Shown here in pieces: positions 12,292 through 57,790 of a stretch of 64,000 nt of DNA. A program made the position numbers and the translations under genes. Source of the DNA: a virus (lineage: Duplodnaviria; Caudoviricetes). Position 1 is the stretch's first letter. Every line of letters starts with the position of its first letter. The stretch lies in the IMG/VR virus record IMGVR_UViG_2816332632_000001, positions 1-64,000 of that record; one strand, 5' to 3'. The notes below the pieces were generated by a model, which saw nothing but the letters and a program-made list of their open reading frames with translations, was not told the DNA's origin and ran no database searches.

Positions 12292-12325
12292 TTAGCTGCC
12301 TAATCCGGTAGGCTTAGCTAGCTAA
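12292..12325. promoter_or_regulatory. Paired palindromic operator-like sites between int and xis
   Basis: TTAGCTGCCTAA (12292) and TTAGCTAGCTAA (12314). Confidence 0.75.
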
Positions 12326-34504: not shown

Positions 34505-34877
34505 TGGTGCGCTCCGCCATCCGGGCGAGCGTGCGCTGCGGGATGCCAGCGAGCTTGGCGAGGAAGTTGACGGAGACGCCTGCGGCGATTGCCACGCGCA
34601 CCTTGTCGTTGTCGACCTCGCCGCGGATGCGCATGAGGAGGACGTCGATGGTGGGCTGGAGGGCTTCGGGCTCGAGTCGACCGCCCGTTCTCTCGGTCTT
34701 CGGCACAAGCCCGTTCACCGTGGCCGGTGCGAGACCGACGAACTTGGCGATGTGCCGGTTGGAGTAGATGCCCCACTCCGCGAGCGAAACGGCCGCGTCG
34801 GCCTTCTGCTGGCGGTCGAGTCCTCCGCGGCGCGAGTGAACGTCGCGCGCTTCCTTGAGTGCTGCGAGGGTGGTCAT
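34497..34877 (-). CDS. Tandem-HTH DNA-binding protein
   Basis: SNRHIAKFVGLAPATV and SVNFLAKLAGIPQRTL. Confidence 0.7.
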   Translation of the reverse strand: MTTLAALKEARDVHSRRGGLDRQQKADAAVSLAEWGIYSNRHIAKFVGLAPATVNGLVPKTERTGGRLEPEALQPTIDVLLMRIRGEVDNDKVRVAIAAGVSVNFLAKLAGIPQRTLARMAERTNG

Positions 34878-37411
34878 GCCGCCTCCTTGATTTCGAGCCA
34901 GGTCTCGCCTGACGTTTGGTCTCTGGTCTTGCCGATGCGCCCTTCGGCGACAAGCTGGGTGATGTATCTGTCTGCGGTGAAGACGTCGTTGACGCGGCCG
35001 TAGACCGCCGACTGTTTGACCTTGCGGCCCGGTCTCGACGCGATGTACTGCTCGACCTTGTCGACCTCGCGCCGGTAGCCGGACTGGGTGGTCTTCTTCA
35101 CCATGAAGAGGAGGTTGCCGAGCCATTCCTCCGCCTGTTCCAGGGCAATGAGGTAGTCGAGTCTGGTGATCTCCGTGCGGCCGAGGGAGCAGGCCACCAG
35201 TGCTGCGCACTTCATGACGGTCCAGGTGAAACGCTCGAGCGACGGCTTGATGAGGTCACGGCTGGGGTGGCCTTCGATCAGCTTCTCGAAGTGCTCGTAG
35301 AACTCCAGGTCGCGGTCGATCACCTCGTCGGGCACGAACATCGCGGACGGCTCGCCCGGCTTCGAGATGAGGCGCACGTTGTTGGCGAACTCGGCCGCCC
35401 AATGCTTCTGCATGTGCTTGAAGTCGACGGTGCGTGCGTCGTCGGGCTTGGCGAACCGCTTGCGCTTCATGTCGCGGGTGCGCTCGACGGTGTCGCCGAC
35501 CGCCCACACGAAACGGTGCAGGAAGCCGGAGTCCCAGTCTTCGGGCTCCAGTGCGGCATACAGCTTCTCGTCGATGCCCGCGTACTGCATCACCAGGAAG
35601 GCTTTCGCGTTCTGGCCGGAGATGTCCTTCTTGCCGTTGCGGAGGATCATCGGCACGCGGCCGCCGTAGATGTCGGTGAGCTTCTCGCGGAGGTTCTTGA
35701 GGTAGCCGTTGTTACCCGGCCGGGACGCCGCGATGTGGCCGTGTGCCTCGTCCGAGTTGAACCAGGAGGCCATGCCGTCGCGCTCGATCAACTTCTCGAT
35801 GAGTGCTTCGGGCGTTGCGTCGCCACCGATGTCCGGGTGATTCTCGGCCGTGTAGTAGGCGTCGAGCACGGTGCGCTGCACGTCCATCGACTCCGACTTA
35901 CCGGTCGTCGACTTTCCGCTCGTCATGCCCCAGATGTTGAGCGGCACGACGAGCCCGCCCTCCTTCATGAGGTAGGCGTGCGGCGAGTAGATGAGGGAGA
36001 GGATCAGGAATCGGTTGAGCCGGTGGTACGGAGGGTTGACGGTCGGGAGTGTCTCGTTGACGAAGTTCATGTACTCGGTGCCGAACCACTGCACGCCCGC
36101 GATCTCTTCACGCTCCGCCGGGCTGAGCAACTCTTCCGGGGTGCGCTCGTCAGTCTGCGGCACGAGCGGCGCGCGCTCCTCGGCGGGCGGCGGTGCCACC
36201 TGAGTGCCCGTCTCGCGCTGGATGACGTCGGCGGCCGTGGCAACCTCACGCCACAGCTTTGCGAGGCCGAGCGAGTCGATCTGGAGGTACTGGGACGCCC
36301 TGGTGCCCCAGGCGAGCGACACTGCCTGCTCCTCAGTGAACCCGAGACGCATCGACTCGACGAGGATGAGGTGGCGAAGCTGCCAGTAGCCCTTGTCGGT
36401 CTTGTGGTCCGGCTCGGCGGTCAGGAGCTCCATCCAGGATTCGCCGCGCGTGGTGAACTCGGGCAGCATGTTTGCCACGCCGAGGAATGGGAGCGGGTTC
36501 GGGATGTTCGCTCCGGGCGGGTCGGCAAGCTGGCCGGCGGTGGAGTGTCGGGCGGACGTCCACTGCTCCATGATCTTGTCCTGGCCCCACGCCGGGTACG
36601 TCGGCGTGTGCGACATGAGGATCTCGAGCGCCTGCTCTTCGGTGACCGCGTAGTCGTTGGAGTTGACCATCCGCGACAGCCAGCACGCAGAGCCGAACAC
36701 GACGTCGTGCCATCCGGCACCCTCGTGCCACACCGTCGGCAGCGCCGAGAGGTCGCGGATGATGGCGTTGACCTGTCGCTGCTCGTCGTCGGAGGCGTAC
36801 TCGACCTTCGTGGCGGAGTGCTGCTCGTAGCTGTACGTCGGGCGCTCGACGGTGAGGTAGTCGATCCACGCATCCGGCAGTCGCTCGAAGTCTTCGAGGC
36901 GCGGCGGTCCGGCCATCGGCTCGCCCTCGTAGTCATACCACTGGTACGTCTCGCCCGTCTCGGGGTGGCGTGAGGGGAACACGAGCGAGTAGCGATGGTG
37001 TCGCTGCACGATCTCGATGTCCTTTGCGGGCTTCTGCTCGAACTCGACGCCGTCGGGCACCAGGAAGAAGTGCTGGCGGCTGGGGTGGCCTTGGCCGCGG
37101 GAGGTGCTCGAGATCGTCGCCGGGAGGGAGCCGAGTCTCCTTTCGAGCTCGGCGAGCTGCTCGGCACCCTTCTTCTCGCCGTACTCGTCGACGTCGACGC
37201 CGATGAAGCCCTCCGCGCGCAGGGCGACGTTCTGCCTGCCCCACGACGGGTCGGCTATCCATTCGGCGACCTTCTCGTCGGTGACGGTTCCCTCGCGGCC
37301 GGTGGCGTCTGCTGGGACCGGTCGCTTCCCCTTCACGGGGATTGGTGCGAAGCCGAGCGATCGGTACGTCTGCGCCGAGGTGCTGTAGTCGACGGGGGTT
37401 GAGGCGTCTAT
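34874..37411 (-). CDS. Bifunctional primase-polymerase fused to a helicase-like domain; probable ATA start at 37411
   Basis: AQTYRSLGFAPIPV.GKRP, GVDVD, QHFF, PSRHP, Walker A GKSTTGKS. Confidence 0.88.
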   Translation of the reverse strand: MDASTPVDYSTSAQTYRSLGFAPIPVKGKRPVPADATGREGTVTDEKVAEWIADPSWGRQNVALRAEGFIGVDVDEYGEKKGAEQLAELERRLGSLPATISSTSRGQGHPSRQHFFLVPDGVEFEQKPAKDIEIVQRHHRYSLVFPSRHPETGETYQWYDYEGEPMAGPPRLEDFERLPDAWIDYLTVERPTYSYEQHSATKVEYASDDEQRQVNAIIRDLSALPTVWHEGAGWHDVVFGSACWLSRMVNSNDYAVTEEQALEILMSHTPTYPAWGQDKIMEQWTSARHSTAGQLADPPGANIPNPLPFLGVANMLPEFTTRGESWMELLTAEPDHKTDKGYWQLRHLILVESMRLGFTEEQAVSLAWGTRASQYLQIDSLGLAKLWREVATAADVIQRETGTQVAPPPAEERAPLVPQTDERTPEELLSPAEREEIAGVQWFGTEYMNFVNETLPTVNPPYHRLNRFLILSLIYSPHAYLMKEGGLVVPLNIWGMTSGKSTTGKSESMDVQRTVLDAYYTAENHPDIGGDATPEALIEKLIERDGMASWFNSDEAHGHIAASRPGNNGYLKNLREKLTDIYGGRVPMILRNGKKDISGQNAKAFLVMQYAGIDEKLYAALEPEDWDSGFLHRFVWAVGDTVERTRDMKRKRFAKPDDARTVDFKHMQKHWAAEFANNVRLISKPGEPSAMFVPDEVIDRDLEFYEHFEKLIEGHPSRDLIKPSLERFTWTVMKCAALVACSLGRTEITRLDYLIALEQAEEWLGNLLFMVKKTTQSGYRREVDKVEQYIASRPGRKVKQSAVYGRVNDVFTADRYITQLVAEGRIGKTRDQTSGETWLEIKEAA

Positions 37412-37451
37412 TGGTCTTGCTCCCGTCTGCTTGGTGATTTGCTGTCTAAAT

Positions 37452-37538
37452 TGGTGGAACGGGGAGGATTCGAACCTCCGGCCTGGGATACCTGTTTTGC
37501 GTCGCGCGACCCCTGCTCTGCCACTGAGCTACCGTCCC
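37452..37538 (-). ncRNA. tRNA-like RNA with Ala identity and a 19-nt anticodon loop
   Basis: GGGACGG/CCGTTCC-A-CCA; D arm GCTC/GAGC; T arm GGAGG-TTCGAAT-CCTCC; stem GGGGT/ATCCC closes a 19-nt loop. Confidence 0.8.
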
Positions 37539-37595
37539 TCGGCCCGTTTCGGTCACATCGTGGATGCGACCAGGAGGGCTAGACCCGTGGCCTGG

Positions 37596-38441
37596 CTAGT
37601 AGCCGGACGCCTGTGCTGCTGCGGCCGCCAGCGCGTCGGCGGGGGCCGCCGGTGCTGCGGCCTGCTGCGCGTAGGCGGCGTCGGCGGGTGCCGGCGTCCA
37701 TGTGGGCGGTCCGGCGGGTGCCTGCGGTGCCTGCTGCGGGGCGGCGGGCGGCTGGGCGTACGCCGGTGCCTGCGGTGCGGGGGGTGCGGCCTGGGCGGGT
37801 GCTCCACCGCCCCATGCGGGCGGCGCGGACGGTGCCGCGGGAGCCGGGGCGGCGGCGCGAGCGCCAGCAGCCTTCGGGACGTACCCGGCGACGAGGTTGC
37901 CGTGGTCGTCCAGCCACGGGACGCGCACGGGCGTCTGCGGCGTGGCGTTGATGTCGCCCGGCGCGTCGAAGAAGTCGACCTCGTTGTAGCCGAGGGGGTT
38001 GAAGGCGTCCGGCTCCTTCGGTGCGCCGAGCTTGATGGTCAGCGGCTTGCCGCCGATGTCGGACGGGCCGGGAAGCTGGCCGGTGATGAGGAGGTCGCGG
38101 GACCAGCCCATCGCCTTCTCCCAGAAGTCCCAGAATCCGCGGGCCGGTGCGCCCTGGGGGTTCTTCTCGGTGGGAGCGAACCTCGTGAAGAGCGGGACGC
38201 GGACGAAGAACGACCTCTTGCGGCCGGTGGGCGACTCGTCGACGATCTGCACCTGAATGCGGACCACCTGCTTGTTCGCGTTGCCGCCACTGCCACCGAA
38301 CTTCTCGGTGCCGACGACCTTGGCGACGTACGCCTGGTACGCGCCAGCCGGGAGCGGGGGGAACCCTCCACTACCGCCCTTGGCCGCCTCTTCGGCAGCC
38401 TCGGCAGCGCGAGGGTCAATCTCTGCTACGAATCCAGTCAA
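37596..38441 (-). CDS. Single-stranded DNA-binding protein with Pro/Ala tail
   Basis: FPPLPAGAYQAYV OB-fold start; beside AAA and Cas4-like genes. Confidence 0.7.
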   Translation of the reverse strand: MTGFVAEIDPRAAEAAEEAAKGGSGGFPPLPAGAYQAYVAKVVGTEKFGGSGGNANKQVVRIQVQIVDESPTGRKRSFFVRVPLFTRFAPTEKNPQGAPARGFWDFWEKAMGWSRDLLITGQLPGPSDIGGKPLTIKLGAPKEPDAFNPLGYNEVDFFDAPGDINATPQTPVRVPWLDDHGNLVAGYVPKAAGARAAAPAPAAPSAPPAWGGGAPAQAAPPAPQAPAYAQPPAAPQQAPQAPAGPPTWTPAPADAAYAQQAAAPAAPADALAAAAAQASGY

Positions 38442-40386: not shown

Positions 40387-40544
40387 GACGTCTCTCCCTT
40401 CATGTCGATGGTGGAACCGGTCAGCGGTGCGGGGCGCGGCCCGCTGACCGGTCTTCTTTTCTGGTGCCTTGACTTGTTCACGATCTCTCCCTCCTGGTTG
40501 GTACAAGAAGATTTAATCGCAAATTAGCCACCTAAGTCAAGGGA

Positions 40545-40889
40545 TTAGCTAGCTAATCTTCCAATTTCTTTGTCCGCCATTTGGAGGACACGAAGTTCTC
40601 CCAGGTCAAGCGGGATTTCTTCGAGTATGGGCTTGCCGTCGTCGTAGCCGATCCCGCCCCACACGCCCCAGCCGGGCTTGCTCACCTCTCCGTACTCGCG
40701 GCATAGCTGCCGAATTGGGCATGATGCGCACATCTCCTCAGCCACGGCGGGCTCTGGCGCGACCTCATAGTTCGCGAAGTCCTCTCCCCTCCCGTAGCAG
40801 TTTCTTTTGTGGTCCCAGTCGTTGCGCTTCGCCTCCCGGAGGAGGGCGAAGAACTCGCGACGAACGACGCGCACTCCACGCTTCGGCAC
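40545..40889 (-). CDS. WhiB-family transcription factor
   Basis: C...CASCPIRQLC...GVWGG. Confidence 0.85.
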   Translation of the reverse strand: MPKRGVRVVRREFFALLREAKRNDWDHKRNCYGRGEDFANYEVAPEPAVAEEMCASCPIRQLCREYGEVSKPGWGVWGGIGYDDGKPILEEIPLDLGELRVLQMADKEIGRLAS

Positions 40890-41709: not shown

Positions 41710-41915
41710 GCGGCCATCCTTTCTCGATAGCTGGGGATCTCTTTGTCTCGGCGGTGTCGCCACACGGTCTGGTCGGCGATGCCGAGTCTCCTGGCGATCT
41801 CGGCGTCGCTCAGCGGCTCCTTGAGGAGCGTGTCGATGGCGTCGTGAGTCTCCTCACTGAGCCAGGCGTCCATGCGGCCGGATGTGCCGCGTTCGCTCCT
41901 GACGCCTCCGCTCAA
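41706..41915 (-). CDS. Small HTH protein
   Basis: SDAEIARRLGIADQTVWRHR. Confidence 0.75.
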   Translation of the reverse strand: MSGGVRSERGTSGRMDAWLSEETHDAIDTLLKEPLSDAEIARRLGIADQTVWRHRRDKEIPSYRERMAA

Positions 41916-43399
41916 CGCTGCGCCGCCAGTGTCGAGCGAACGTCTGCGAACGACTGGTACCGGATGAAGGCGCCATCCTCCCAGACCGGCTGTAGCTCCG
42001 AAACGCTCTCCAGTTCCGGGCTCGCCTCCTGGAGGAGCATGAGCTCTCCAGCGTTGCGCACGACCGCGAGGCGGCCAGTGGCGGACTTCTTCATGCCAGA
42101 GTCAGTGACCGGGTTCTTCTGGATGTTGCGGCCTTCGCCGTCGATCTCCACCCAGGTCGCCTTGATGGCGCTCATGAACGTGTCGCGGGTCTGGTACTGG
42201 TAGGTGTAGGAGCCGACGCCGAAGACGATGTTGGTTGACGCGAATCCCTTCGCCTCCAGCCTCTTGACGATGTCAGCCGCTCGCTCGCGAGTGATGCTGT
42301 CACCGTAGATCGCGCCGACGTGCGGGTCGAGGGTGCGGAACCACTGGCCAGCGCCCGATCGCTCGCCCTTGACGCGCTCGCCAGGATATCGGTCGTAGAG
42401 GAGCTCGATCAGCCCCTTCTCCGCGGCCGTGCGTCCGGCTCCAAAGTTCCGTTCCGTGCCGCAGATGATGTCGGCAGGGTCGCCGGAGTCGGGGCGGATG
42501 ACGAGCTTGCCGTCACGCTCCATGATCTCGGAGTAGAGCTTCGGCAGGATGCGAGTGACCACGTTCCACAGATCCCAGGTGTCGGACACGATGGACACGA
42601 TTCCCGTCGGGTAAAGCGAGAGGAGGCGGCGATACGTTTCGAGCTCGTCGTCCTGCCCGCCGGCGCACATGACGGAGTGCTCGGTGGCCGGGACCGAGGC
42701 GAGCACGAGGCCGTTGTCGCCCCTGTAGTACCGCTCGATCCACTCCAGCGATGCGAGCGAGTCGGAGCCGGTGAAGGAGAGGAGGTGGCCTGCGCCGGAT
42801 GCGGCAGCCGACTCCGTGCCCGACATGCCCCTGTAGGAGAAGTCGTGGAGCTGGAAGTCGACGCCGTCGGTAGATCCGGTGGTGGTCAGCGCGGCGTCGT
42901 CGAGAAGCTTGCGGTACTCGTGAGCGAGGGTGGCGCTCGTCGACGGCCCCCACACGGATGCCGAGAGCACAGTCTCGATGTAGTTGGTCAGCCAGAAGAA
43001 CTCCGGGAGCGTGTTCTCCACCGTGAACGACGGCACGCGCAGCGGCACGAGTGTTCCCTCGGGGACCGCGCAGAAGCGCAGCGGGAGGTAGCCGAGGCGA
43101 TGCAGTGCCCGGATGTGGTCGGTGCCGACGGCGTTGGGGCCGAGGATCGAGTTGACGCGCGCCTCGTACTCGGCCACCACGGCATCCTCGTCGGCGGCGA
43201 AGAACGACTCGAATGCGTCCGTGCAGTACCGCTGGAGGAACGCCTGGAGCCCGAAGTGCACGACGTGGTCGACGCCGTCGATGCGGGAGCCGCGGTTGGT
43301 GAAGTTGGAGTAGACGCGGGTTGTGCCCTCGGGGTACTGGCGGCGGTGGTCGAGCTTGTAGGCGTCGGTCTCGAAGAGTGCTGCGGTTGCGGTGGTCAT
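41912..43399 (-). CDS. Nicotinamide phosphoribosyltransferase homologue (Namat-like, NARP1)
   Basis: TDAYKLDH, HDFSYRG, PATEHSV, VSDTWD, IRPDSGDP, YGDSIT, KKSATG. Confidence 0.92.
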   Translation of the reverse strand: MTTATAALFETDAYKLDHRRQYPEGTTRVYSNFTNRGSRIDGVDHVVHFGLQAFLQRYCTDAFESFFAADEDAVVAEYEARVNSILGPNAVGTDHIRALHRLGYLPLRFCAVPEGTLVPLRVPSFTVENTLPEFFWLTNYIETVLSASVWGPSTSATLAHEYRKLLDDAALTTTGSTDGVDFQLHDFSYRGMSGTESAAASGAGHLLSFTGSDSLASLEWIERYYRGDNGLVLASVPATEHSVMCAGGQDDELETYRRLLSLYPTGIVSIVSDTWDLWNVVTRILPKLYSEIMERDGKLVIRPDSGDPADIICGTERNFGAGRTAAEKGLIELLYDRYPGERVKGERSGAGQWFRTLDPHVGAIYGDSITRERAADIVKRLEAKGFASTNIVFGVGSYTYQYQTRDTFMSAIKATWVEIDGEGRNIQKNPVTDSGMKKSATGRLAVVRNAGELMLLQEASPELESVSELQPVWEDGAFIRYQSFADVRSTLAAQR

Positions 43400-44271: not shown

Positions 44272-44477
44272 GCGGTACCCCCAGACCAAATCCAGCAAAC
44301 CAGCAGGATTATCCCTAGGGACAGTCCCATCACCAGCGCGGAAATCAGGAACGCCAAGAGGGATGCCGCGAGAGTTTCGATCGCATCCTCGCCCTCCTGC
44401 CAGGTTCGCTTTGCGATGAACCCCGTGATGGCGAGCACGAGGATGAGCGCAAGCAGGATCAGAGCGCCCTCGATCAT
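44268..44477 (-). CDS. Small membrane protein
   Basis: Two TM helices, start MIEGAL. Confidence 0.6.
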   Translation of the reverse strand: MIEGALILLALILVLAITGFIAKRTWQEGEDAIETLAASLLAFLISALVMGLSLGIILLVCWIWSGGTA

Positions 44478-45778
44478 GCGGCCACCAGGCTTCCCTCGGC
44501 CTCGAGGTCGACGGCGTCCTGGTCGAGCATCTTGGTTTCGTGCTGGAGGAAGATCGGCGACTTGGCCTTGAGCAGGAACGGTGCCCACCCATCGGCGCGA
44601 ACGACCACGCCCTCGTCGACAAACCGCTTGGGCAGCGGGACGACGTCGAGGATTGGGTACTTCGCCTCGCCGAGAGTCTGGCCGTTGATGCTGAGGTTCT
44701 TGTCGATCCAGTAGTCCACATCGAACTCAGCGTGCCGCCCACTCCACAACTCGGGCACGTACTTGAGCCCGCGCTCCGTGGCGAACGCCTTCACCTGCGG
44801 CCACGAGAGGTCGACGAGCATCCCGCCGTTGGTGACCACGGCGACGCGGTAGATGTAGAGCTCTGCCGCGCCCTGCGGCAGGTCGTATGTGTAGTCCTTT
44901 TGGATGGGCGCGCCATCCGGGGTCCAGCCGATGAGTTCGCCGTAGACGACGAAATTCTCCGGGATCATGTCGTCGAGGGTGCGGCCGAAGTCGGTCCAGA
45001 TGTCGGAGCCGTAGAAGTGGTTCTGGTTCGGGTTGTTCGGGTCTTTGATGACCTTGCGCGAGCCGTACACGTGGTCGTACTCGGTCTCGCGGACGGTCAC
45101 GCCGAGCTTCTTGGCCAGGCGCTCCAGGAAGGAGAGCTTGCGCTTCACGAGCGTATTGGCGATGCGGATGCTGGTGCCGTGGAGCTTCTGCGTGACGACG
45201 ATCTGCTCGTCCGGCGCGATCTTGAACTCGTTGCGCCAGTAGTTCTCGGTGTCGTAGTGCTCCGGCAGGAACTTCTCGTCGACGCGCTTGAAGACCTTCT
45301 CGTGCTTGGCGGTGCGCTCGCGCGGCTCGGCCGGCTGCTTCACGAGGTACTTGCGGCAGATCTCGTGGTCGCCGATCTTGTCGAACGTGTCGCCGACCTC
45401 GAAGTCGCGAAGATCCTCCGGGTGGTTGAGCAGGTAGTCGAGCGAGGTGAGCGGCATGAAGAGCGCGTCGGAGCGGTGGCCGCGGAACTTCATCGCCTTC
45501 ACTCGGCGGTTGTCCTCCAGGTAGCCCTTCACGCGGTCGTCGACGTTCTTCTCGGCGTGGCGGTACAGCCCATTGAATGCGGCGTACTCGTCGGAGAGTT
45601 GCGTCTCGGCCGGGAAGAACAGGCCGATGTCGCCGACCTTGACATCCTTCGACACGATGGCCTGGAGTCCGAACAGCGGGACGCCGACCACGTTGTCGCA
45701 GTTAGCTAGCTGATTGATGGCGTTCACCCTCACGACGACGGCCGCGTAGTTCGGGTTGACGGGTGCTTCGAGTTTCAA
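44474..45778 (-). CDS. ATP-dependent RNA ligase with N-terminal OB domain
   Basis: Motif I TQKLHGTS, YGELIG, YVP, EGVVVR, LKAK. Confidence 0.85.
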   Translation of the reverse strand: MKLEAPVNPNYAAVVVRVNAINQLANCDNVVGVPLFGLQAIVSKDVKVGDIGLFFPAETQLSDEYAAFNGLYRHAEKNVDDRVKGYLEDNRRVKAMKFRGHRSDALFMPLTSLDYLLNHPEDLRDFEVGDTFDKIGDHEICRKYLVKQPAEPRERTAKHEKVFKRVDEKFLPEHYDTENYWRNEFKIAPDEQIVVTQKLHGTSIRIANTLVKRKLSFLERLAKKLGVTVRETEYDHVYGSRKVIKDPNNPNQNHFYGSDIWTDFGRTLDDMIPENFVVYGELIGWTPDGAPIQKDYTYDLPQGAAELYIYRVAVVTNGGMLVDLSWPQVKAFATERGLKYVPELWSGRHAEFDVDYWIDKNLSINGQTLGEAKYPILDVVPLPKRFVDEGVVVRADGWAPFLLKAKSPIFLQHETKMLDQDAVDLEAEGSLVAA

Positions 45779-45889
45779 AGAGTCCTCCTCAGTTGGTTGT
45801 CCCGCAGCGGGCGCAGCGGAGTTTGCTTGCGGACGAGCGCCAGGCGTGGCCAACCTTCTCGCACCAAAATGCAGTCGCGGTCTTCATGC

Positions 45890-46822
45890 CTAGAAGTCGC
45901 CGTCGGCAACCTGATAGCACTTGAGGCCGATGGCGCGCCACATGGCGACGACACGGTTGCGGTCGTCGAACACGCCGAGCACGTTGTAGCGGCGGCGGAT
46001 GTGCTCGTCGAAGAGCTCGTACTTGACGATGTCGTCGTTGCGCTCGTCGCCGGCCTTCCGCATGAACAGGTGATCGAACGGAACGCCGTTGTCGTGAAGC
46101 CACTGCTCGGTCTCGTCTCGGCAGTCGTCACGACGGCCGGAGACGAGAATGATGGTCGCGTGGTCCCACGCGTAGTGCACCATGCGAAGCACGTTGAGGT
46201 CGATGATGTCCTCGCCGACGCGGCCGTAGTCGTGCCACTCTCGCGGGTTCTCCGGGTCGAGGTGGGCGAGCGTGCCGTCGATGTCGAAGATGTACGCACG
46301 ACGGGCGAAGGTGTCAGGCACGTACCGCTCGAACACGGGGCGGTCGCGCTCAGGGAGGCGCTCGGGCGGGGCGGGCAGCACGCCGCCCGTGCCGCGCACG
46401 TAGCGGTTGTAGAAGTCGCGGATGACCTTCTCGCCGACCGGGTGCTCGCGCTTGCTGTCGCGCTTGATCGCTTCGTCGACCGCGATGGGGAAGTCGCGGA
46501 ACTCGATGGGGCCGACCTCGAGCCACTTGCGCACGTGGCGCGCTCGGAGGTTGGTGTCGTCCACGACGACGTCCTTGCCAGCCTTGAGCGCGCGGCGCGC
46601 GGTGGCGTGCTGGATGGCGGTGATGGCGCCTTCGTTGTCGAAGTCGAAGCGGTAGGGGCCGCCGCCGGTGAACATGCGGCGCAGGTCGTCGCGGTTCAGG
46701 CGGATGCGATTCTCGGGGTCTTCGGCAACCCACTCCTTCGCCCACGTGGACTTGCCGGATGCGGGGATGCCGCGGGTCAGGATAATGCGGCCCTGTCTGG
46801 TGGGCGCGATGGTGTCTGTCAA
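45890..46822 (-). CDS. Polynucleotide 5'-kinase/3'-phosphatase (T4 Pnk-like)
   Basis: GIPASGKST, RDDLR, DDTN, DIDGT, SGR, FDDR. Confidence 0.92.
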   Translation of the reverse strand: MTDTIAPTRQGRIILTRGIPASGKSTWAKEWVAEDPENRIRLNRDDLRRMFTGGGPYRFDFDNEGAITAIQHATARRALKAGKDVVVDDTNLRARHVRKWLEVGPIEFRDFPIAVDEAIKRDSKREHPVGEKVIRDFYNRYVRGTGGVLPAPPERLPERDRPVFERYVPDTFARRAYIFDIDGTLAHLDPENPREWHDYGRVGEDIIDLNVLRMVHYAWDHATIILVSGRRDDCRDETEQWLHDNGVPFDHLFMRKAGDERNDDIVKYELFDEHIRRRYNVLGVFDDRNRVVAMWRAIGLKCYQVADGDF

Positions 46823-46865
46823 ATCTGAATCCTCCAATTCGTGATTAGCTAGCTAAACCCTAGCA

Positions 46866-51400: not shown

Positions 51401-54400
51401 CTTCCAGCCGGGGATGCTCTCGCCGTCGTACCACCGCTGCTCCTTCTCCCAGTGCCGCACGTACCATCCGCTATCCAGGTTCGCTTCCGCTTCCCGCTTT
51501 GTTTCGTACGTCGGCCCCATCTGCGTGCCCTGTTTGTCGACTACGCACCAGCGTGCGCGCGTGCCGTACGGGATGCGCTCAACCGTCCAGGTTTCGGGCG
51601 GGTTTGCGGCGTGCTGCTCGGGTGAGGTGTAGAGGCTCATGCGCTCATCGCCTCCCGGATGCGCTCCGTAACCTCGACGGTGGTGCCCAGCGCGGCGGGC
51701 GTGTTGCCCCAGCGCTGAATGCTGCCGTCGCGGGCGATGGCGAACTCGAACACTTGGCCCTCGTCGGTCGTACCCCAGCCTCGGAGCTCGATCAGGCTGG
51801 CGTCCCGGATGGTGTCCGTGCTCATGCGATGCCCTCCCAGTCGGTCAACTCGTCCGCGAACGCGGAGCGCACCAGGCCGTCAGCGAACCGCATTTCGAAC
51901 ATCGGGCCGACCTCCTCGTCAACGCCATCATCGGGGCCGAGTTCGCGCAGCACGGTCACGCGCTCGCCGCTGTGCTCGTTGAGCTCCGGCTCACACGTGC
52001 TCTCGTCCGTGGTGTAGCGCGTGAACGTGGCGACAGCGGGTGTCTGGATGGTGCTCACGCTGCGTTCTCCTTCGGGATGTGGCGTTCAGCCTCGACCGTG
52101 TCGAGCATCCGGGCTAGTTCGGCGGTGGGGATGGTCACGTTGCGCTTGTCGGCTGCCAGGGCTGCCGCGACAGTCTCCGTGACCGTTGCGGCTGGCTTGC
52201 GGCGCTTCACTGCGCGGGGCGTCTCGTAGGCGATGCGGGCCACCTGCGCAATGAGCGCTTCGACCTGCTCACGGCTCACGATCGCCTCACCGTTTTCATC
52301 CCACTGCATGAGGTCTGCAAGCTCCGTGGGGAGCGCTTCGAGCTTCGCGGGAATGGTGGGCGCGTCCGGCTCGGATACCGGGGCGATGTGTTCGCCCACA
52401 CGGGCCAGCAGGCGCGCCATGTCGGCGGTCGGGACGCTCACTGTCGCCGCGCCCTTGATCTGCGCTGCGGCGAGCTTGCCAGGGAGCACGTAGCGGGAAA
52501 CGTGCGTGCGCATGAACTCGTCGATGCGGGCGGCGGCGCTCACGCTTTGACCTCCCCGCACCCGTGCTCCGCGGCGGTATCCCAGAGAGCCGCGAGGGTG
52601 TCGTCATGTTCGACATCGCACACTCGCTCTCGGCAGTCGGGGTCCGGGCAGTACAGCGCGAGACTGTCGCTTTCGCCGCTCCAGCGGATTTCGTACCGCC
52701 CTGCAAATTCGTTGCTCACGCGGCGACCTCCTGCGGGGTGTTCTCGGCGAGCCAGGCGAGCGCTTCACGCTCATTCGCCCACAGCCATTCCGCGACCGGG
52801 TTTCGCACCCAAGTCGTGCCGAACAGTGTCGGCTCCGTCGGGATCAGCGTGTCCGAACCGTTGGCGTGCGTCCCCAGCTTGAATGTGGCCGCGTTGGGGG
52901 CGATGCCGTCGGCGTCGTCATACCCGATTGTGAGCTTGATCTGCGCGAGCTCCTCATCCGTGAGCGTGACCACGAGCAGCCCGGCCGCGTCAACGCTGTA
53001 CCGGTTCGCCAGCGGGTCCGTGTGCAGTTCGGCGGGGGTGAACGCTTCGCCCGCCGTGCGGCGCAGCGACTCGTACACCGTGTTCGGGTTCGTCGTGCCG
53101 AGCCCCTGGATGCCGATCTGACGTTTCGGGATGCCGAGCGCGAACGCTTTGCGGACCTCGACGTCCATGTCCCGGGTCAGGCCGGCGATCCGTGCATCCA
53201 ACTCCATTCTGAGCCGGGCGAGGCCGTTCGCCTTCTCGCTGAGCACCCTCTCACGGGTCATGCGGACGTTCGAGAGGGCCATCTTCTGTGTGGCGTCCAA
53301 CTGCATTGAAACTCCATTCTCGGGGGTTTTGCTTGGATTAAGCGTATCGGATGTATCGGAATTTAGCTAGCTAATTTGTACGTATTAGTCAGCAATACGA
53401 ACGCTACATCGGGGAAATACGGTGGCTGCTGAAATGTGACTAGCCAGTAAACGCCTAGGAATCAGCGTTCTTGCGAGATCGCTCTCACTTCACTCTTAAC
53501 ACTTGACCGTATTTAGTTCTTGTAACTACATACGGGGAATACTGGGGGTGTGGGGTATCAGGCTTTGAGGATGAACCAGTACAGCCACATTGCAGCGCCG
53601 GCGGCAACCGGGATGGTTGTCCCGATCAGGGTGTAGGCGGCGAGTCGTGCAAGCTGCTGGATGCGTCGAGCGCGGATGCGCTGGCGGCGAGTCTTCAAAC
53701 CAAGCTCGCGGTACAGCTTGCCCTCAGTCATGCTCGCGGCAGGGTTGAACGTGCGCGCGTAGTGCTGGCGTTCCGACTCTGTGAGGGCTCGTGAATGGTC
53801 CGGAGCCATCACAATCAGGGCGGCGGTGGTGCTCACTTTCCGCCGCCCGTCCGACGCGCAATGATGGCGGTCTGTAGCGCCCACTGCGCAGTGTTCAGAG
53901 TGTTGAACGCCTCACGGGACGTAAACCCAATGAAACCGTGGTCGGTCAGGAATGCGGGGTGAGCCATTCCGGGGGTGTTCGGGTGAATCACGAACAGTCG
54001 CCACGGCTGATAGGCATCCTTGATGAGGGTGAACGTGGAGCCGACCGGCTCAACGCCGAGCTCCACAGCATTCTTGATCGCCAGGCCGGCCATGTGCTCG
54101 ATCTGTGCGCGGGTGTAGTGAGTCAACGGGGGCCACCTTTCTTAGCTTTGCGGCGCCGCTTCATGGCGGCATTGTGGAGTCGTGCACGGTGTTCGGAACG
54201 CTTGCGGGACTCGTATTCGTACCGGTCGCGCTGGCGGGCAAGCTCGTATTCGTCGGGATTCACTTGACCCTCACCCCTGCTCGGATGATGCCGCTAGTGG
54301 CGCGCGTCCGGATTGCGGGCCGACAGTCGATGAGGTACTTACCCTGCTTGACGGGGCGGAGGTCACTGTGCGGGGTGGACACATGCACGCGCTCCCAGAG

Positions 54401-56484: not shown

Positions 56485-56573
56485 AGAACCATCCTACCAA
56501 ATTAGCTAGTTAAAGTGTAGCGATTAGATAGCTAAATGTACGGTTTTATTACCCCACAATGGGTGACATGAAA

Positions 56574-57069: not shown

Positions 57070-57142
57070 TGCCCCGTAGCGCAACTGGTAGAGCGCCTGA
57101 TTCTGGATCAGGAGGTTGTTGGTTCGAATCCAGCCGGGGCAG
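57070..57142 (+). tRNA. tRNA-Gln(CTG)
   Basis: TGCCCCG/CGGGGCA, CCTGA-TTCTGGA-TCAGG, GGTTCGAATCC. Confidence 0.88.
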
Positions 57143-57153
57143 CGCAACACCGA

Positions 57154-57226
57154 TGGCCCGTAGCTCAGTTGGTAGAGCATCCGCCTGTTAAGCGGACGGT
57201 CGCAGGATCGAGACCTGCCGGGCCAG
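57154..57226 (+). tRNA. tRNA-Asn(GTT)
   Basis: TGGCCCG/CGGGCCA, TCCGC-CTGTTAA-GCGGA, atypical T loop ATCGAGA. Confidence 0.88.
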
Positions 57227-57228
57227 CC

Positions 57229-57658: not shown

Positions 57659-57790
57659 TTTGCTTCATTTTCAAGCTGGAAAATGTACGGTTATTAGCTA
57701 GCTAATCGGTGGGATTAGCCCACTAATTGCGATAGTGTTGGTGTTGTTCGGGCGTGGAAGCCCAGCAAACACAACGAATTGGAGGATTCA

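What the first reader, a model, noticed from the sequence alone, without database searches (positions are those of the whole stretch)
37452..37538. Alanine-identity tRNA mimic with a 19-nt anticodon loop
Seen (minus strand): GGGACGG TA GCTC AGTGGCA GAGC A GGGGT [CGCGCGACGCAAAACAGGT] ATCCC AGGCC GGAGG TTCGAAT CCTCC CCGTTCC A CCA. Acceptor, D and T arms are intact, CCA is encoded, and G3.U70 plus A73 are present; only the anticodon loop is abnormal (12 extra nt). Known: G3.U70 defines AlaRS substrates regardless of anticodon, as in tmRNA. Inference: it is chargeable with Ala but cannot decode normally. Possible roles are codon-independent Ala donation or ribosome rescue, a decoy for anticodon nucleases, or a precursor with a 12-nt intron (CGC at positions 34-36) sealed by the phage Pnk/ligase. 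It lies alone in the replication operon of a phage rich in Ala-Ala tails.
Basis: partly seen in the sequence, partly recalled or inferred. Interest (0 to 1): 0.85.

Follow-up and report, generated by a model that had tools for sequence, protein, structure and literature searches.

The report
Phage tRNA look-alike without an anticodon
A phage gene encodes an RNA shaped like a transfer RNA whose codon-reading loop is replaced by a conserved self-pairing module, one member of a family that public phage records label inconsistently as ordinary tRNAs.

Summary
Window 37452-37538 (minus strand) is an 87-nt tRNA-shaped gene. It scores 53.6 bits on Rfam tRNA (cut-off 29). Acceptor, D and T arms are intact, G3.U70, A73 and CCA are encoded, and the anticodon loop is 19 nt.

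It is not a lone decayed allele. Thirteen sequences carry the same replacement module: this window, Microbacterium phage PrincePhergus, Gordonia phages (CherryTomatoes, the Smoothie group, BrutonGaster) and IMG/VR contigs. The module has three parts:
- a covarying 2-3 bp stem;
- a perfect 8-10 nt self-complementary run that differs between phages;
- an A-rich tail, about UAAAACAGG.

Across the family the cloverleaf stems covary (11 of 16 pairs) and the 15:48 tertiary pair covaries (13 of 13). GenBank labels these genes Pro, Val, Ala, Leu, OTHER, or leaves them unannotated.

Reading it as an intron finds no support. The Ala-type acceptor is real here and recurs in several non-canonical lineages, but only 4 of the 13 family sequences have it.

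The excess of Ala-Ala protein tails is real (15 of 84 ORFs). Stop/start overlaps and a repeated 12-bp motif account for 12 of the 15.

Best reading: a trans-acting tRNA mimic that does not decode. It may form dimers and be charged with alanine. Its function is unknown, and no expression data were available.

The parts
37452..37538 (-). Whole tRNA-like gene, 87 nt including the encoded CCA
   Evidence: Sequence. Rfam RF00005 at 53.6 bits over 37455-37538.
37532..37538 (-). Acceptor 5' strand GGGACGG (RNA positions 1-7)
   Evidence: The acceptor helix has double changes at 7 of 7 pairs across 13 family members.
37515..37529 (-). D arm GCTC-AGTGGCA-GAGC. G15 pairs with C48 (Levitt pair).
   Evidence: D stem paired in 13 of 13. 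Pair 15:48 is A-U in 10 and G-C in 3, so 13 of 13 paired.
37511..37513 (-). 5' strand (GGG) of the short stem that remains of the anticodon stem
   Evidence: Pairs with CCC at 37485-37487. The equivalent stem is CGG/CCG, GGC/GCC, AGC/GCT, GC/GC or TGG/CCA in relatives (read by eye from the parsed segments).
37501..37510 (-). Perfect 10-nt self-complementary run GTCGCGCGAC
   Evidence: It is the only copy in the window. At the same place relatives have GTCGGCCGAC, GTGCGCAC, GGTGCGCACC, GGTGCACC, GGGATCCC, GATGCGCATC, TGGCTAGCCA or GTGTACAC.
37488..37500 (-). A-rich tail GCAAAACAGGTAT (family consensus about R-Y-AAAACAGG-N-A)
   Evidence: Seen in 12 of 13 family sequences; PrincePhergus differs (GTAACTCTTGA).
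37485..37487 (-). 3' strand (CCC) of the short stem
37480..37484 (-). Variable loop AGGCC (C48 is the partner of G15)
37463..37479 (-). T arm GGAGG-TTCGAAT-CCTCC
   Evidence: T stem paired in 13 of 13, and 3 of 5 pairs show double changes.
37452..37462 (-). Acceptor 3' strand CCGTTCC (U70), discriminator A73, encoded CCA
   Evidence: The two ordinary tRNAs of the record do not encode CCA.
37551..37571 (-). Hairpin just upstream of the gene, after the stop of the 281-aa ORF
   Evidence: 10-pair stem; the 62-nt spacer folds at -25.3 kcal/mol, z -2.29. Similar hairpins precede the PrincePhergus and WilliamStrong elements (read by eye).
34874..37336 (-). Downstream gene: Prim-Pol/DUF3987 primase-helicase (context only)
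   Evidence: Pfam PF09250 6.6e-18 and PF13148 3.9e-10.
37596..38441 (-). Upstream 281-aa ORF with no family match (context only)
   Evidence: No Pfam or PHROG match.

Best explanation
The gene encodes a trans-acting, non-decoding tRNA mimic. It belongs to a conserved phage family that I did not find described in the searches listed under Tried and rejected.

Shown: the RNA keeps everything that makes a tRNA L-shaped and recognisable to tRNA-handling enzymes. That covers the acceptor, D and T arms, U8, the G18G19 and T-loop elbow, and the 15:48 pair. The lower two base pairs of the anticodon stem and the 7-nt loop are replaced by a 23-nt module between the three remaining stem pairs. The module is a self-complementary 8-10-mer followed by a single-stranded A-rich tail (about UAAAACAGG).

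Inferred:
- It is cut out of the replication-operon transcript by RNase P and the 3' tRNA-maturation enzymes.
- It ends in its encoded CCA.
- In this lineage (G3.U70, G2-C71, A73) the host AlaRS can charge it.
- It cannot pair with a codon.
- The self-complementary run lets two molecules pair end to end at the anticodon end, because it is too short-looped to fold stably on itself.
- It acts by occupying or recruiting a tRNA-binding host or phage factor, not by decoding. This would fit a phage that also carries tRNA-repair genes (Pnk and RNA ligase) and an NAD-salvage gene (NAMPT).

My odds: conserved non-decoding tRNA mimic about 0.8; alanylated in vivo about 0.4; dimer about 0.4; decoy or adaptor in phage-host conflict about 0.25. 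The confidence given for this field (0.6) is for the statement as a whole without the decoy step.
For: 1) tRNA shape. Rfam tRNA scores 53.6 bits. Relatives also pass the cut-off at 45-52 bits: PrincePhergus 52.3, CherryTomatoes 47.3, Miskis 50.2, L295 49.8, L297 46.6, L226 45.4.

2) Homology through the insert. PrincePhergus and CherryTomatoes match 72% and 69% of a 121-nt query at 79.5% and 80.7% identity. The loops align: TCGnnCGACGnAA with PrincePhergus, CAAA(A)CAGGT with CherryTomatoes.

3) Spread of the family. BLAST with the Miskis copy finds 21 Gordonia phage records under 16 phage names. An IMG/VR motif scan adds L226/L240/L266/L287, L251, L246/L263, L295, L297 and L298.

4) Selection on structure in 13 sequences.
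- 98.6% of 208 cells are paired.
- 11 of 16 pairs show double changes.
- The covariation score is 0.695 against 0.162 in shuffles (0 of 500 reach it) and at most 0.230 with slid partners.
- The tertiary pair 15:48 is A-U in 10 and G-C in 3.

5) Selection on the module.
- A strict Watson-Crick palindrome of 8 nt or more sits at the same place in 13 of 13.
- The same measure gives 10 of 208 ordinary-size cloverleaf hits and 2 of 49 other long-centre hits.
- Six different central tetramers occur (GCGC, GGCC, TGCA, GATC, CTAG, GTAC), and all are self-complementary. A hairpin loop would not need that.
- L226 and L246 differ by a clean G-C to A-U double change (GGTGCGCACC against GATGCGCATC).
- L298, which is outside the 13, keeps pairing only through a G.U wobble (GGGGTACTCC). 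L251 ends in G.U (GGTGCGCACT). Both point to RNA-level pairing.

6) The isolated 30-nt arm is not a stable monomer hairpin: -5.0 kcal/mol, z +0.68, and 144 of 200 shuffles fold as well. Predicted homodimers pair the palindromes in 6 of 8 members.

7) Ala-type acceptor.
- G3.U70 is kept with different neighbouring pairs: GGGACGG/CCGTTCC (window, PrincePhergus, L004, L048, L063), GGGAAAG/CTTTTCC (L226 group), GCGACGG/CCGTTGC (L046), GGGCCAC/GTGGTCC (Koji, Golden) and AGGCCGC/GCGGTCT (Pherbot).
- Among loci found with the same fixed 5' half, U70 occurs in 4 of 8 non-canonical loci and 0 of 10 ordinary ones.
- In ordinary-size phage tRNAs G3.U70 occurs in 12 of 208, and 9 of those read TGC.
- G3.U70 is the major AlaRS determinant (PMC9976931, passages).

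8) CCA is encoded here but not in the record's two ordinary tRNAs.

9) Context. RNA ligase (phrog_968, 8.5e-104), polynucleotide kinase (phrog_505, 9.1e-95) and NAMPT (phrog_448, 1.1e-189) lie 4-9 kb away on the same strand.
Against: - There is no expression, processing, charging or dimer evidence of any kind.
- G3.U70 is absent from 9 of the 13 family sequences (C-G 7, A-U 1, G-C 1). Discriminators vary (A, C, G). Alanylation therefore cannot be what the module is for.
- This copy has A4-U69 instead of G4-C69 and lacks G20 (one search set).
- Whole-molecule folding energy is no better than shuffles (z -0.66).
- The dimer energy gain is partly generic. In 2 of 8 members the predicted dimer uses swapped T and acceptor arms, not the palindrome.
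- The 13 sequences are related, so the palindrome counts are not independent events.
- A DNA-level role for the palindrome is not excluded.
- No partner protein is shared by the neighbourhoods.
- PrincePhergus lacks the AAAACAGG tail.
- The element sits in replication modules in some phages and at the head of tRNA arrays in others, so position gives no clue to function.
Confidence: 0.6

Rival explanations
1. Cis-acting punctuation element. The tRNA shape serves only as an RNase P / RNase Z cleavage signal. It would separate the upstream genes from the Prim-Pol message and set that message's 5' end and stability. The excised RNA itself would have no job.
For: It lies between ORFs of one strand, with no promoter-like or terminator-like site called between them. 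In Microbacterium phages a tRNA-like element always sits directly upstream of the DNA polymerase I gene. Those elements differ greatly in their lower half while keeping the acceptor and T arms, with compensatory G6-C67 to A6-U67 changes. That is what a bare processing signal would need.
Against: Punctuation does not need G3.U70, A73, an encoded CCA, the 15:48 pair or a conserved palindrome-plus-tail module. In Gordonia phages and in L246 and L295 the same module sits inside tRNA arrays, where processing signals are already abundant.
Confidence: 0.15
2. Precursor of a decoding tRNA-Ala(CGC). A 12-nt intron in the anticodon loop would be removed and the ends sealed by the phage Pnk and RNA ligase.
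For: CGC stands at loop positions 3-5 next to an Ala-type acceptor. The record encodes RNA ligase and polynucleotide kinase.
Against: Any excision of one contiguous piece leaves G or A, not U, at position 33. Homologous positions in relatives give unrelated 'anticodons' that do not match their acceptors. The inserted sequence is the conserved part of the family, not a variable spacer. RNA ligase is absent from 10 of 10 relatives' records. Twelve nucleotides cannot be a group I intron (established knowledge).
Confidence: 0.04
3. Decaying tRNA pseudogene with no function.
For: ARAGORN rejects it. Folding energy is not better than shuffles.
Against: The same module is kept in phages of Microbacterium and Gordonia and in uncultured contigs, with compensatory changes in every helix and in the palindrome.
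Confidence: 0.05
4. The palindrome acts at the DNA level, as a symmetric protein-binding site or cruciform inside a tRNA-like gene, not in the RNA.
For: Eleven of the 13 runs are perfect Watson-Crick palindromes of 8-10 bp. They resemble recognition sites of dimeric DNA-binding proteins.
Against: The sequence differs in nearly every phage while the position in the RNA fold is fixed. L251 and L298 keep symmetry only through G.U. The window has a different genome-wide palindromic motif, TTAGCNNGCTAA, with 19 copies and none at the element. GTCGCGCGAC occurs only once.
Confidence: 0.08
5. Y-RNA-like partner of a Ro60 (Rsr) protein, or a minimal tmRNA-like rescue RNA.
For: A metagenome relative of the 5' half (L056) lies directly upstream of a Ro60 gene (vWA_Ro60 1.1e-60, TROVE 4.8e-17). 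Bacterial YrlA RNAs mimic tRNA and occur in phages (PMC4201824, passages). tmRNA is charged through G3.U70 (recalled).
Against: No TROVE gene is found in this record or in 5 of 5 relatives' records. YrlA has a permuted topology with a closed acceptor-like stem, unlike this RNA. There is no tag frame or pseudoknots, and the permuted tmRNA model scores 11.2 bits against a cut-off of 47.
Confidence: 0.04

Closest known systems
tRNA-like domain of tmRNA (SsrA)
   Same: Both have an acceptor stem with G3.U70 and a T arm, and neither has an anticodon. tmRNA is charged with alanine independently of any codon (recalled; Ala identity rules from PMC9976931).
   Different: This RNA has a full D arm. It has no mRNA-like tag frame and no pseudoknots. 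It is 87 nt long, and the tmRNA models do not match it.
Bacterial and phage YrlA Y RNAs (Chen et al. 2014, PMC4201824; passages read)
   Same: These are non-coding RNAs with tRNA-like D and T arms and the 15:48 pair. They are found in Actinobacteria and mycobacteriophages. The M. smegmatis form is cut by RNase P and receives CCA.
   Different: YrlA is permuted: its ends form the Ro60-binding stem. It is encoded next to Ro60. Here the ends form the acceptor stem, and no Ro60 gene is present.
Phage tRNAs with anticodon-loop changes proposed to escape host anticodon nucleases (van den Berg et al. 2023, PMC10264068; abstract and passages)
   Same: Both are phage-encoded tRNA genes whose anticodon loop departs from the host form. 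Both come from actinobacteriophages, in a setting of tRNA-directed defence and phage tRNA repair.
   Different: Those tRNAs keep a 7-nt loop and still decode. This one replaces the loop and two stem pairs and cannot decode.
Bacillus cereus tRNA-Other, a pseudo-tRNA that does not act in translation (PMC3399842; search listing and abstract only)
   Same: It is a tRNA-shaped RNA with a role outside decoding.
   Different: It is chromosomal, with a different sequence and loop, and no palindromic module is reported in the abstract.
tRNA-like structures at the 3' ends of plant RNA viruses (PMC7749636, PMC8127992, PMC10870377; search listing only)
   Same: These are viral tRNA mimics that host aminoacyl-tRNA synthetases charge without any decoding role.
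   Different: They are cis elements of RNA genomes with pseudoknotted acceptor stems. This is a free-standing gene of a DNA phage with a true cloverleaf.
Kissing-loop dimerisation sites such as the HIV-1 DIS (recalled, not checked in a paper)
   Same: A short GC-rich palindrome is exposed in a loop, and its sequence varies while its self-complementarity is kept.
   Different: Here the context is a tRNA-like RNA of a phage, and dimerisation is only inferred.

Membership tests
Canonical tRNA (Rfam RF00005) | Score at or above the gathering cut-off, with acceptor, D and T arms | tested here: met
   53.6 bits against 29; model positions 1-71 all matched.
Canonical tRNA (Rfam RF00005) | 5-bp anticodon stem closing a 7-nt loop with U33 and a readable anticodon | tested here: not met
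   The loop is 19 nt and no U can be placed at position 33. ARAGORN gives no call. It is therefore not filed as a decoding tRNA.
Canonical tRNA (Rfam RF00005) | Tertiary elbow: G18G19, T-loop TTCGAAT, Levitt pair 15:48 | tested here: met
   All are present. Pair 15:48 covaries in 13 of 13.
Bacterial alanine-accepting RNAs (AlaRS substrates) | G3.U70 wobble pair | tested here: met
   G3 pairs with U70 in GGGACGG/CCGTTCC. In the family it is present in 4 of 13.
Bacterial alanine-accepting RNAs (AlaRS substrates) | A73 and G2-C71 | tested here: met
   identity set from PMC9976931.
Bacterial alanine-accepting RNAs (AlaRS substrates) | G4-C69 and G20 (minor determinants) | tested here: not met
   A4-U69; position 20 is C by my numbering of AGTGGCA.
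Bacterial alanine-accepting RNAs (AlaRS substrates) | Actual charging with alanine | not testable with these tools
   Needs in vitro alanylation or acid-gel analysis.
tmRNA | Tag reading frame, pseudoknots, tmRNA model score | tested here: not met
   ARAGORN calls no tmRNA. tmRNA_permuted scores 11.2 bits against 47.
YrlA / Y RNA | Encoded next to a Ro60 (TROVE) gene; ends form the Ro60-binding stem | tested here: not met
   No TROVE match in the 75-kb record. The ends form the acceptor stem.
Intron-containing tRNA | Excision restores a canonical anticodon arm whose anticodon fits the acceptor identity, consistently among homologues | tested here: not met
   No U33 is possible. Software-read anticodons differ among homologues. 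The insert is the conserved part.
Proposed family: palindrome-plus-AAAACAGG tRNA mimics of phages | D arm TAGCTCA-N-GGCAGAGC type, a 2-3 bp residual stem, an 8-10 nt self-complementary run, an A-rich tail, and a 5-6 nt variable loop before the T arm | tested here: met
   The window has all five. Thirteen of 13 aligned members share the layout. PrincePhergus departs in the tail.

The most novel reading that the evidence does not exclude
Phages of Actinobacteria and other hosts make a class of anticodon-less tRNA mimics that pair tail to tail through a self-complementary loop. In the G3.U70 lineages, which include this one and the Koji-type elements of Microbacterium phages, host AlaRS charges them. 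That would give a codon-independent alanyl-RNA, or an AlaRS / EF-Tu / tRNA-nuclease trap, used in the conflict over the host tRNA pool. The rapid swapping of the lower half between near-identical genomes would then be the trace of an arms race. PrincePhergus and Pherbot show it: their flanks are 96% identical but their elements differ.
Probability: 0.2. Interest if true: 0.85.

Novelty: new variant of a known kind. Interest (0 to 1): 0.66.

Why it matters
- Function. Phage tRNA genes are usually read as codon supplements or as nuclease-resistant replacements. A conserved phage RNA that keeps the whole tRNA body but discards the anticodon points to a use of the tRNA shape outside decoding.
- Testability. 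Cultured, easily handled phage-host pairs carry it (Microbacterium foliorum and Gordonia terrae SEA-PHAGES isolates), so the question is directly testable.
- Annotation. The same gene is filed in GenBank as tRNA-Pro, tRNA-Val, tRNA-Ala, tRNA-Leu, tRNA-Phe(AAA) or tRNA-OTHER, or not at all. These labels feed codon-usage and tRNA-content analyses.
- Selection. The varied but always self-complementary loop sequence is an unusual signature for a tRNA-like RNA.

Tried and rejected
Searches that gave nothing useful:
- Close relatives of the window phage. Megablast of 2 kb around the element against 50,697 phage records found no match. Prim-Pol finds only proteins below 60% identity, in 314 records. 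The search for related loci in IMG/VR found none. Syntenic orthologues of this exact locus could therefore not be compared.
- The genome-contig scan with the acceptor/D/T pattern gave 16 stretches. Fifteen are chance matches outside any tRNA and one is an archaeal intron-containing tRNA.
That scan is incomplete.
- The scan with acceptor+D and T-loop gave 13 ordinary tRNAs of mixed identity: Ile, Phe, Lys, Val, His. The 5' half alone is therefore not diagnostic.
- No RNA holder was listed for the window (3 runs on record as DNA).
- No sigma-70-like promoter and no terminator was called next to the gene.
- GTCGCGCGAC and AAAACAGGT are not repeated in the window beyond chance, so no set of target sites was found.
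- No shared neighbouring protein was found among 18 flanking proteins, apart from the related PrincePhergus and WilliamStrong pair.

Ideas considered and set aside:
- The Ro60 / Y RNA lead from L056.
- The link between Ala-Ala tails and the mimic.
- The intron reading (see Rival explanations).
- attP. The element is a complete cloverleaf in the middle of the replication module, not at a prophage end.
- Descent from tRNA-Tyr. GUAAAACAGG equals the anticodon, A37, A38 and the 3' stem of ordinary phage tRNA-Tyr(GUA). The 5' partner strand is absent, so I treat this as an unexplained resemblance.

Literature. Six searches and passages of PMC5559632 gave no description of this module. Subscription journals and supplementary files were not visible. 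The supplements of PMC4201824 (lists of phage YrlA RNAs) and of PMC10264068 could bear on this.
Full report
**1. The observation**

- Rfam's tRNA model matches 37455-37538 at 53.6 bits (gathering score 29; E 1e-08 for the whole window). All 71 model positions are aligned, with 18 nt standing where the model has six loop positions.
- ARAGORN finds only tRNA-Gln and tRNA-Asn at 57070-57228 and does not call this gene.
- Folding energy alone is not exceptional (z -0.66; 49 of 200 shuffles fold as well). The argument rests on the covariance model and on comparison with relatives.

The record is a 75,199-nt IMG/VR virus record classed as a provirus. The gene lies on the same strand as, and between, a 281-aa ORF with no family match and a Prim-Pol/DUF3987 primase-helicase. 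An AAA_24 ATPase and an exonuclease lie further upstream. So it does sit alone in the replication module.

**2. It is not a lone decayed allele**

BLAST of a 121-nt query (the 87-nt element plus short flanks) against 50,697 phage records gave two near full-length matches.
- Microbacterium phage PrincePhergus: 79.5% identity, annotated tRNA-Pro, 86 nt.
- Gordonia phage CherryTomatoes: 80.7% identity, annotated tRNA-Val, 83 nt.

In both, the similarity runs through the enlarged loop. Using these relatives as queries led to more members.
- The Smoothie group of Gordonia phages and BrutonGaster: 21 records under 16 phage names.
- From an IMG/VR motif scan, the contigs behind L226/L240/L266/L287, L251, L246/L263, L295, L297 and L298.

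GenBank labels these genes tRNA-Pro(cgg), tRNA-Val(cac), tRNA-Ala(cgc), tRNA-Leu(cag) or tRNA-OTHER, or leaves them unannotated. ARAGORN gives 'ta', cac, cgc, or no call.

**3. Anatomy of the family**

Parsing 13 sequences shows one layout:
- nucleotide 26;
- a residual stem of 2-3 pairs, which covaries (GGG/CCC here; CGG/CCG, GGC/GCC, AGC/GCT, GC/GC and TGG/CCA elsewhere);
- a self-complementary run of 8-10 nt;
- an A-rich tail (here GCAAAACAGGTAT; consensus about R-Y-AAAACAGG-N-A);
- the 3' strand of the stem;
- a 5-6 nt variable loop, then the T arm.

The self-complementary run differs in almost every lineage: GTCGCGCGAC, GTCGGCCGAC, GTGCGCAC, GGTGCGCACC, GGTGCACC, GGGATCCC, GATGCGCATC, TGGCTAGCCA and GTGTACAC. 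It is nevertheless a strict Watson-Crick palindrome of 8 nt or more in 13 of 13. The same measure gives 10 of 208 ordinary-size cloverleaf hits and 2 of 49 other long-centre hits in the same loci.

Other points on the run:
- Its six different central tetramers are all self-complementary.
- L226 and L246 differ by a G-C to A-U double change.
- L251 (at the ends of its run) and L298 (inside its run) keep symmetry only through G.U pairs.

On the MAFFT alignment of the 13, the acceptor, D and T helices behave as follows:
- They are paired in 98.6% of 208 cells.
- Eleven of 16 pairs show changes on both sides.
- The covariation score is 0.695. Column shuffles give 0.162 (0 of 500 reach the observed value) and slid partners give at most 0.230.

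The Levitt pair 15:48 is A-U in ten sequences and G-C in three.

These are related sequences, so the counts are not independent events. Even so, the pattern is that of a folded RNA under selection, not of decay.

**4. What the module implies**

The RNA cannot decode.
- There is no 7-nt loop and no U33.
- The positions that software reads as anticodons lie inside the palindrome.

As a monomer the 30-nt arm is weak: -5.0 kcal/mol, z +0.68. A hairpin would not need a self-complementary loop centre. Continuous symmetry through the centre is what an intermolecular duplex needs. ViennaRNA predicts homodimers that pair the runs in 6 of 8 members. In the other two the predicted gain comes from swapped arms, so this calculation is weak support. 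I therefore infer, but have not shown, that two molecules can pair at their anticodon ends, leaving the A-rich tails exposed. A DNA-level role for the palindrome remains possible; the G.U cases and the changing sequence speak against it.

**5. The alanine question**

This copy has G3.U70, G2-C71, A73 and an encoded CCA. The record's two ordinary tRNAs do not encode CCA. The bacterial Ala identity set in PMC9976931 is A73, G2-C71, G3.U70, G4-C69 and G20, and changing G3.U70 to A3-U70 or G3-C70 abolishes charging (passages). This copy has A4-U69 and, by my numbering, C20.

Within the palindrome family G3.U70 occurs in 4 of 13 sequences, on two different acceptor stems. Ala identity is therefore not what defines the module.

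G3.U70 does recur in other non-canonical tRNA-likes with quite different lower halves:
- L063: a 5-bp stem with a 3-nt loop;
- L046: no anticodon arm;
- L004 and L048: long inserts;
- the Koji, Golden and Pherbot elements.

The wobble pair is kept in these while its neighbouring pairs change. Among loci found with the same fixed 5' half, U70 occurs in 4 of 8 non-canonical loci and 0 of 10 ordinary ones. Among 208 ordinary-size cloverleaf hits, G3.U70 occurs in 12, and nine of those carry a TGC anticodon.

I read this as moderate evidence that a subset of these mimics, this one included, is kept chargeable by AlaRS. Charging itself is untested.

**6. A hot spot in Microbacterium phages**

The site between a small hypothetical gene and DNA polymerase I always holds a tRNA-like gene, but not the same one.
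- PrincePhergus has the window type.
- Pherbot, Koji and Golden have flanks 96%, 89% and 84% identical to PrincePhergus. They carry an element annotated tRNA-Phe(AAA) with a 6-bp stem and a 15-nt loop. It does not reach the Rfam cut-off.
- GaeCeo has a long bulged arm (50.2 bits).
- WilliamStrong, Juicer and Mercedes carry an unannotated 117-nt form. It keeps the acceptor and T arms, with compensatory G6-C67 to A6-U67 and A-U to U-A changes.

So the upper half is conserved while the lower half is exchanged between otherwise near-identical genomes.

**7.

Intron. The record does encode an RNA ligase (44474-45853, phrog_968, 8.5e-104) and a polynucleotide kinase (45890-46837, phrog_505, 9.1e-95), next to a NAMPT gene. 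RNA ligase is absent from 10 of 10 relatives' records, and no excision restores a canonical loop.

Rescue or tmRNA. There is no tag frame and no model match.

Y RNA. One metagenome relative of the 5' half (L056) sits upstream of a Ro60 gene. No TROVE gene is present here or in 5 of 5 relatives. YrlA also has a permuted topology (PMC4201824).

Ala-Ala tails. Fifteen of 84 crude ORF calls end in AA against about 1.1 expected.
- Nine are GCA|TGA or GCG|TGA stop/start overlaps, often preceded by a Shine-Dalgarno-like GGAG.
- Three are TTAGCTGCT|TAA (two exact; the third reads GTAGCTGCT|TAA), resembling a 12-bp motif found 19 times in the window against 0.39 expected.
- Three have neither.

Most of the excess (12 of 15 tails) is thus a by-product of gene-junction signals. 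I see no link to the mimic.

**8. Verdict**

The finding is real, and more interesting than a one-off oddity. The gene belongs to a conserved family of tRNA mimics that phage records annotate inconsistently, in which a structured, self-complementary module replaces the anticodon.
- Shown by comparison: it is a non-decoding tRNA-shaped RNA.
- Inferred: it is processed like a tRNA, charged with alanine in this lineage, and dimeric.
- A guess: it serves as a decoy or adaptor in the conflict over tRNAs.

Supplementary files of the papers I consulted could not be read.

Noticed in passing
window, 19 sites, e.g. 12292-12325, 40524-40556, 46845-46856, 53363-53374, 56502-56535, 57694-57726: A 12-bp palindromic motif TTAGCNNGCTAA occurs 19 times (at most 1 mismatch) against 0.39 expected. 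The copies are mostly at gene ends or between genes, and four times they come in pairs 21-22 bp apart. It looks like a phage operator or promoter-associated repeat. None lies within 1.8 kb of the mimic.
   Followed up: partly
window, 84 crude ORF calls: 15 of 84 ORFs end in Ala-Ala (about 1.1 expected) and 27 of 84 end in Ala. Nine of the AA tails are GCA|TGA or GCG|TGA overlaps with the next start, and three overlap the TTAGC..GCTAA motif.
   Followed up: yes
window 37337-37456 (-), upstream of the Prim-Pol ORF 34874-37336: The Prim-Pol reading frame stays open back to the 3' end of the mimic. It encodes ...YRSLGFAPIPV, continuing into KGKRP. This appears to correspond to the first 16 positions of the Pfam profile, which the called ORF lacks: the Pfam match starts at profile position 17, residue 2. 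No ATG, GTG or TTG lies in that stretch. By eye, a GGGAG is followed 8 nt later by ATA at 37411-37409. The start codon of this gene is unclear.
   Followed up: partly
window 41912-43399, 44474-45853, 45890-46837 (all -): Nicotinamide phosphoribosyltransferase, RNA ligase and polynucleotide kinase lie side by side. These are tRNA-repair and NAD-salvage functions, such as phages use against host defences.
   Followed up: partly
L074:1088-1175 and L074:1428-1516 (Gordonia phage Miskis): Two further non-canonical tRNA-like genes lie in the same array. One has the same D arm, a different enlarged centre and a tail ending AGAGC (33.9 bits). The other is annotated tRNA-OTHER(cgtg).
   Followed up: no
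L056:1886-2801 (metagenome contig): A Ro60 (TROVE + vWA_Ro60) gene is preceded by three tRNA hits, a weak tmRNA-like hit, and a 118-nt tRNA-like with a long stem-loop in place of the anticodon arm. This may be a non-permuted Y-RNA-like partner.
   Followed up: partly
L003:2917-3033, L068:601-718, L069:601-725 (Microbacterium phages WilliamStrong, Juicer, Mercedes): An unannotated 117-nt structured RNA (z -2.76) has a tRNA acceptor stem and T arm, a D-like hairpin and an extra long hairpin. It lies upstream of DNA polymerase I and shows compensatory changes.
   Followed up: partly
L306:601-680, L307:585-666, L308:576-657 (Pherbot, Koji, Golden): Genes annotated tRNA-Phe(AAA) have a 15-nt loop, a reduced D arm, G3.U70, A73 and (Koji, Golden) CCA. 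They do not reach the Rfam tRNA cut-off. The Phe label looks wrong.
   Followed up: partly
L246:5353-5914 (-) and L295:3524-3911 (+): A ROOL RNA (RF03087, 366 bits) and a tmRNA (94 bits; tag ATLRSNSYALAA) lie in the tRNA arrays that also hold family members.
   Followed up: no
L037-L044, L051, L053 (IMG/VR and metagenome contigs): tRNA 5' halves identical to the search pattern are followed by inserts of more than 100 nt before any T arm. These may be tRNA genes with large introns or other fusions.
   Followed up: no
L054:38-114 and L058 (metagenome contigs): A tRNA-like with a 5-bp stem and a 9-nt anticodon loop (ACTAATGGA); 51.6 bits.
   Followed up: no
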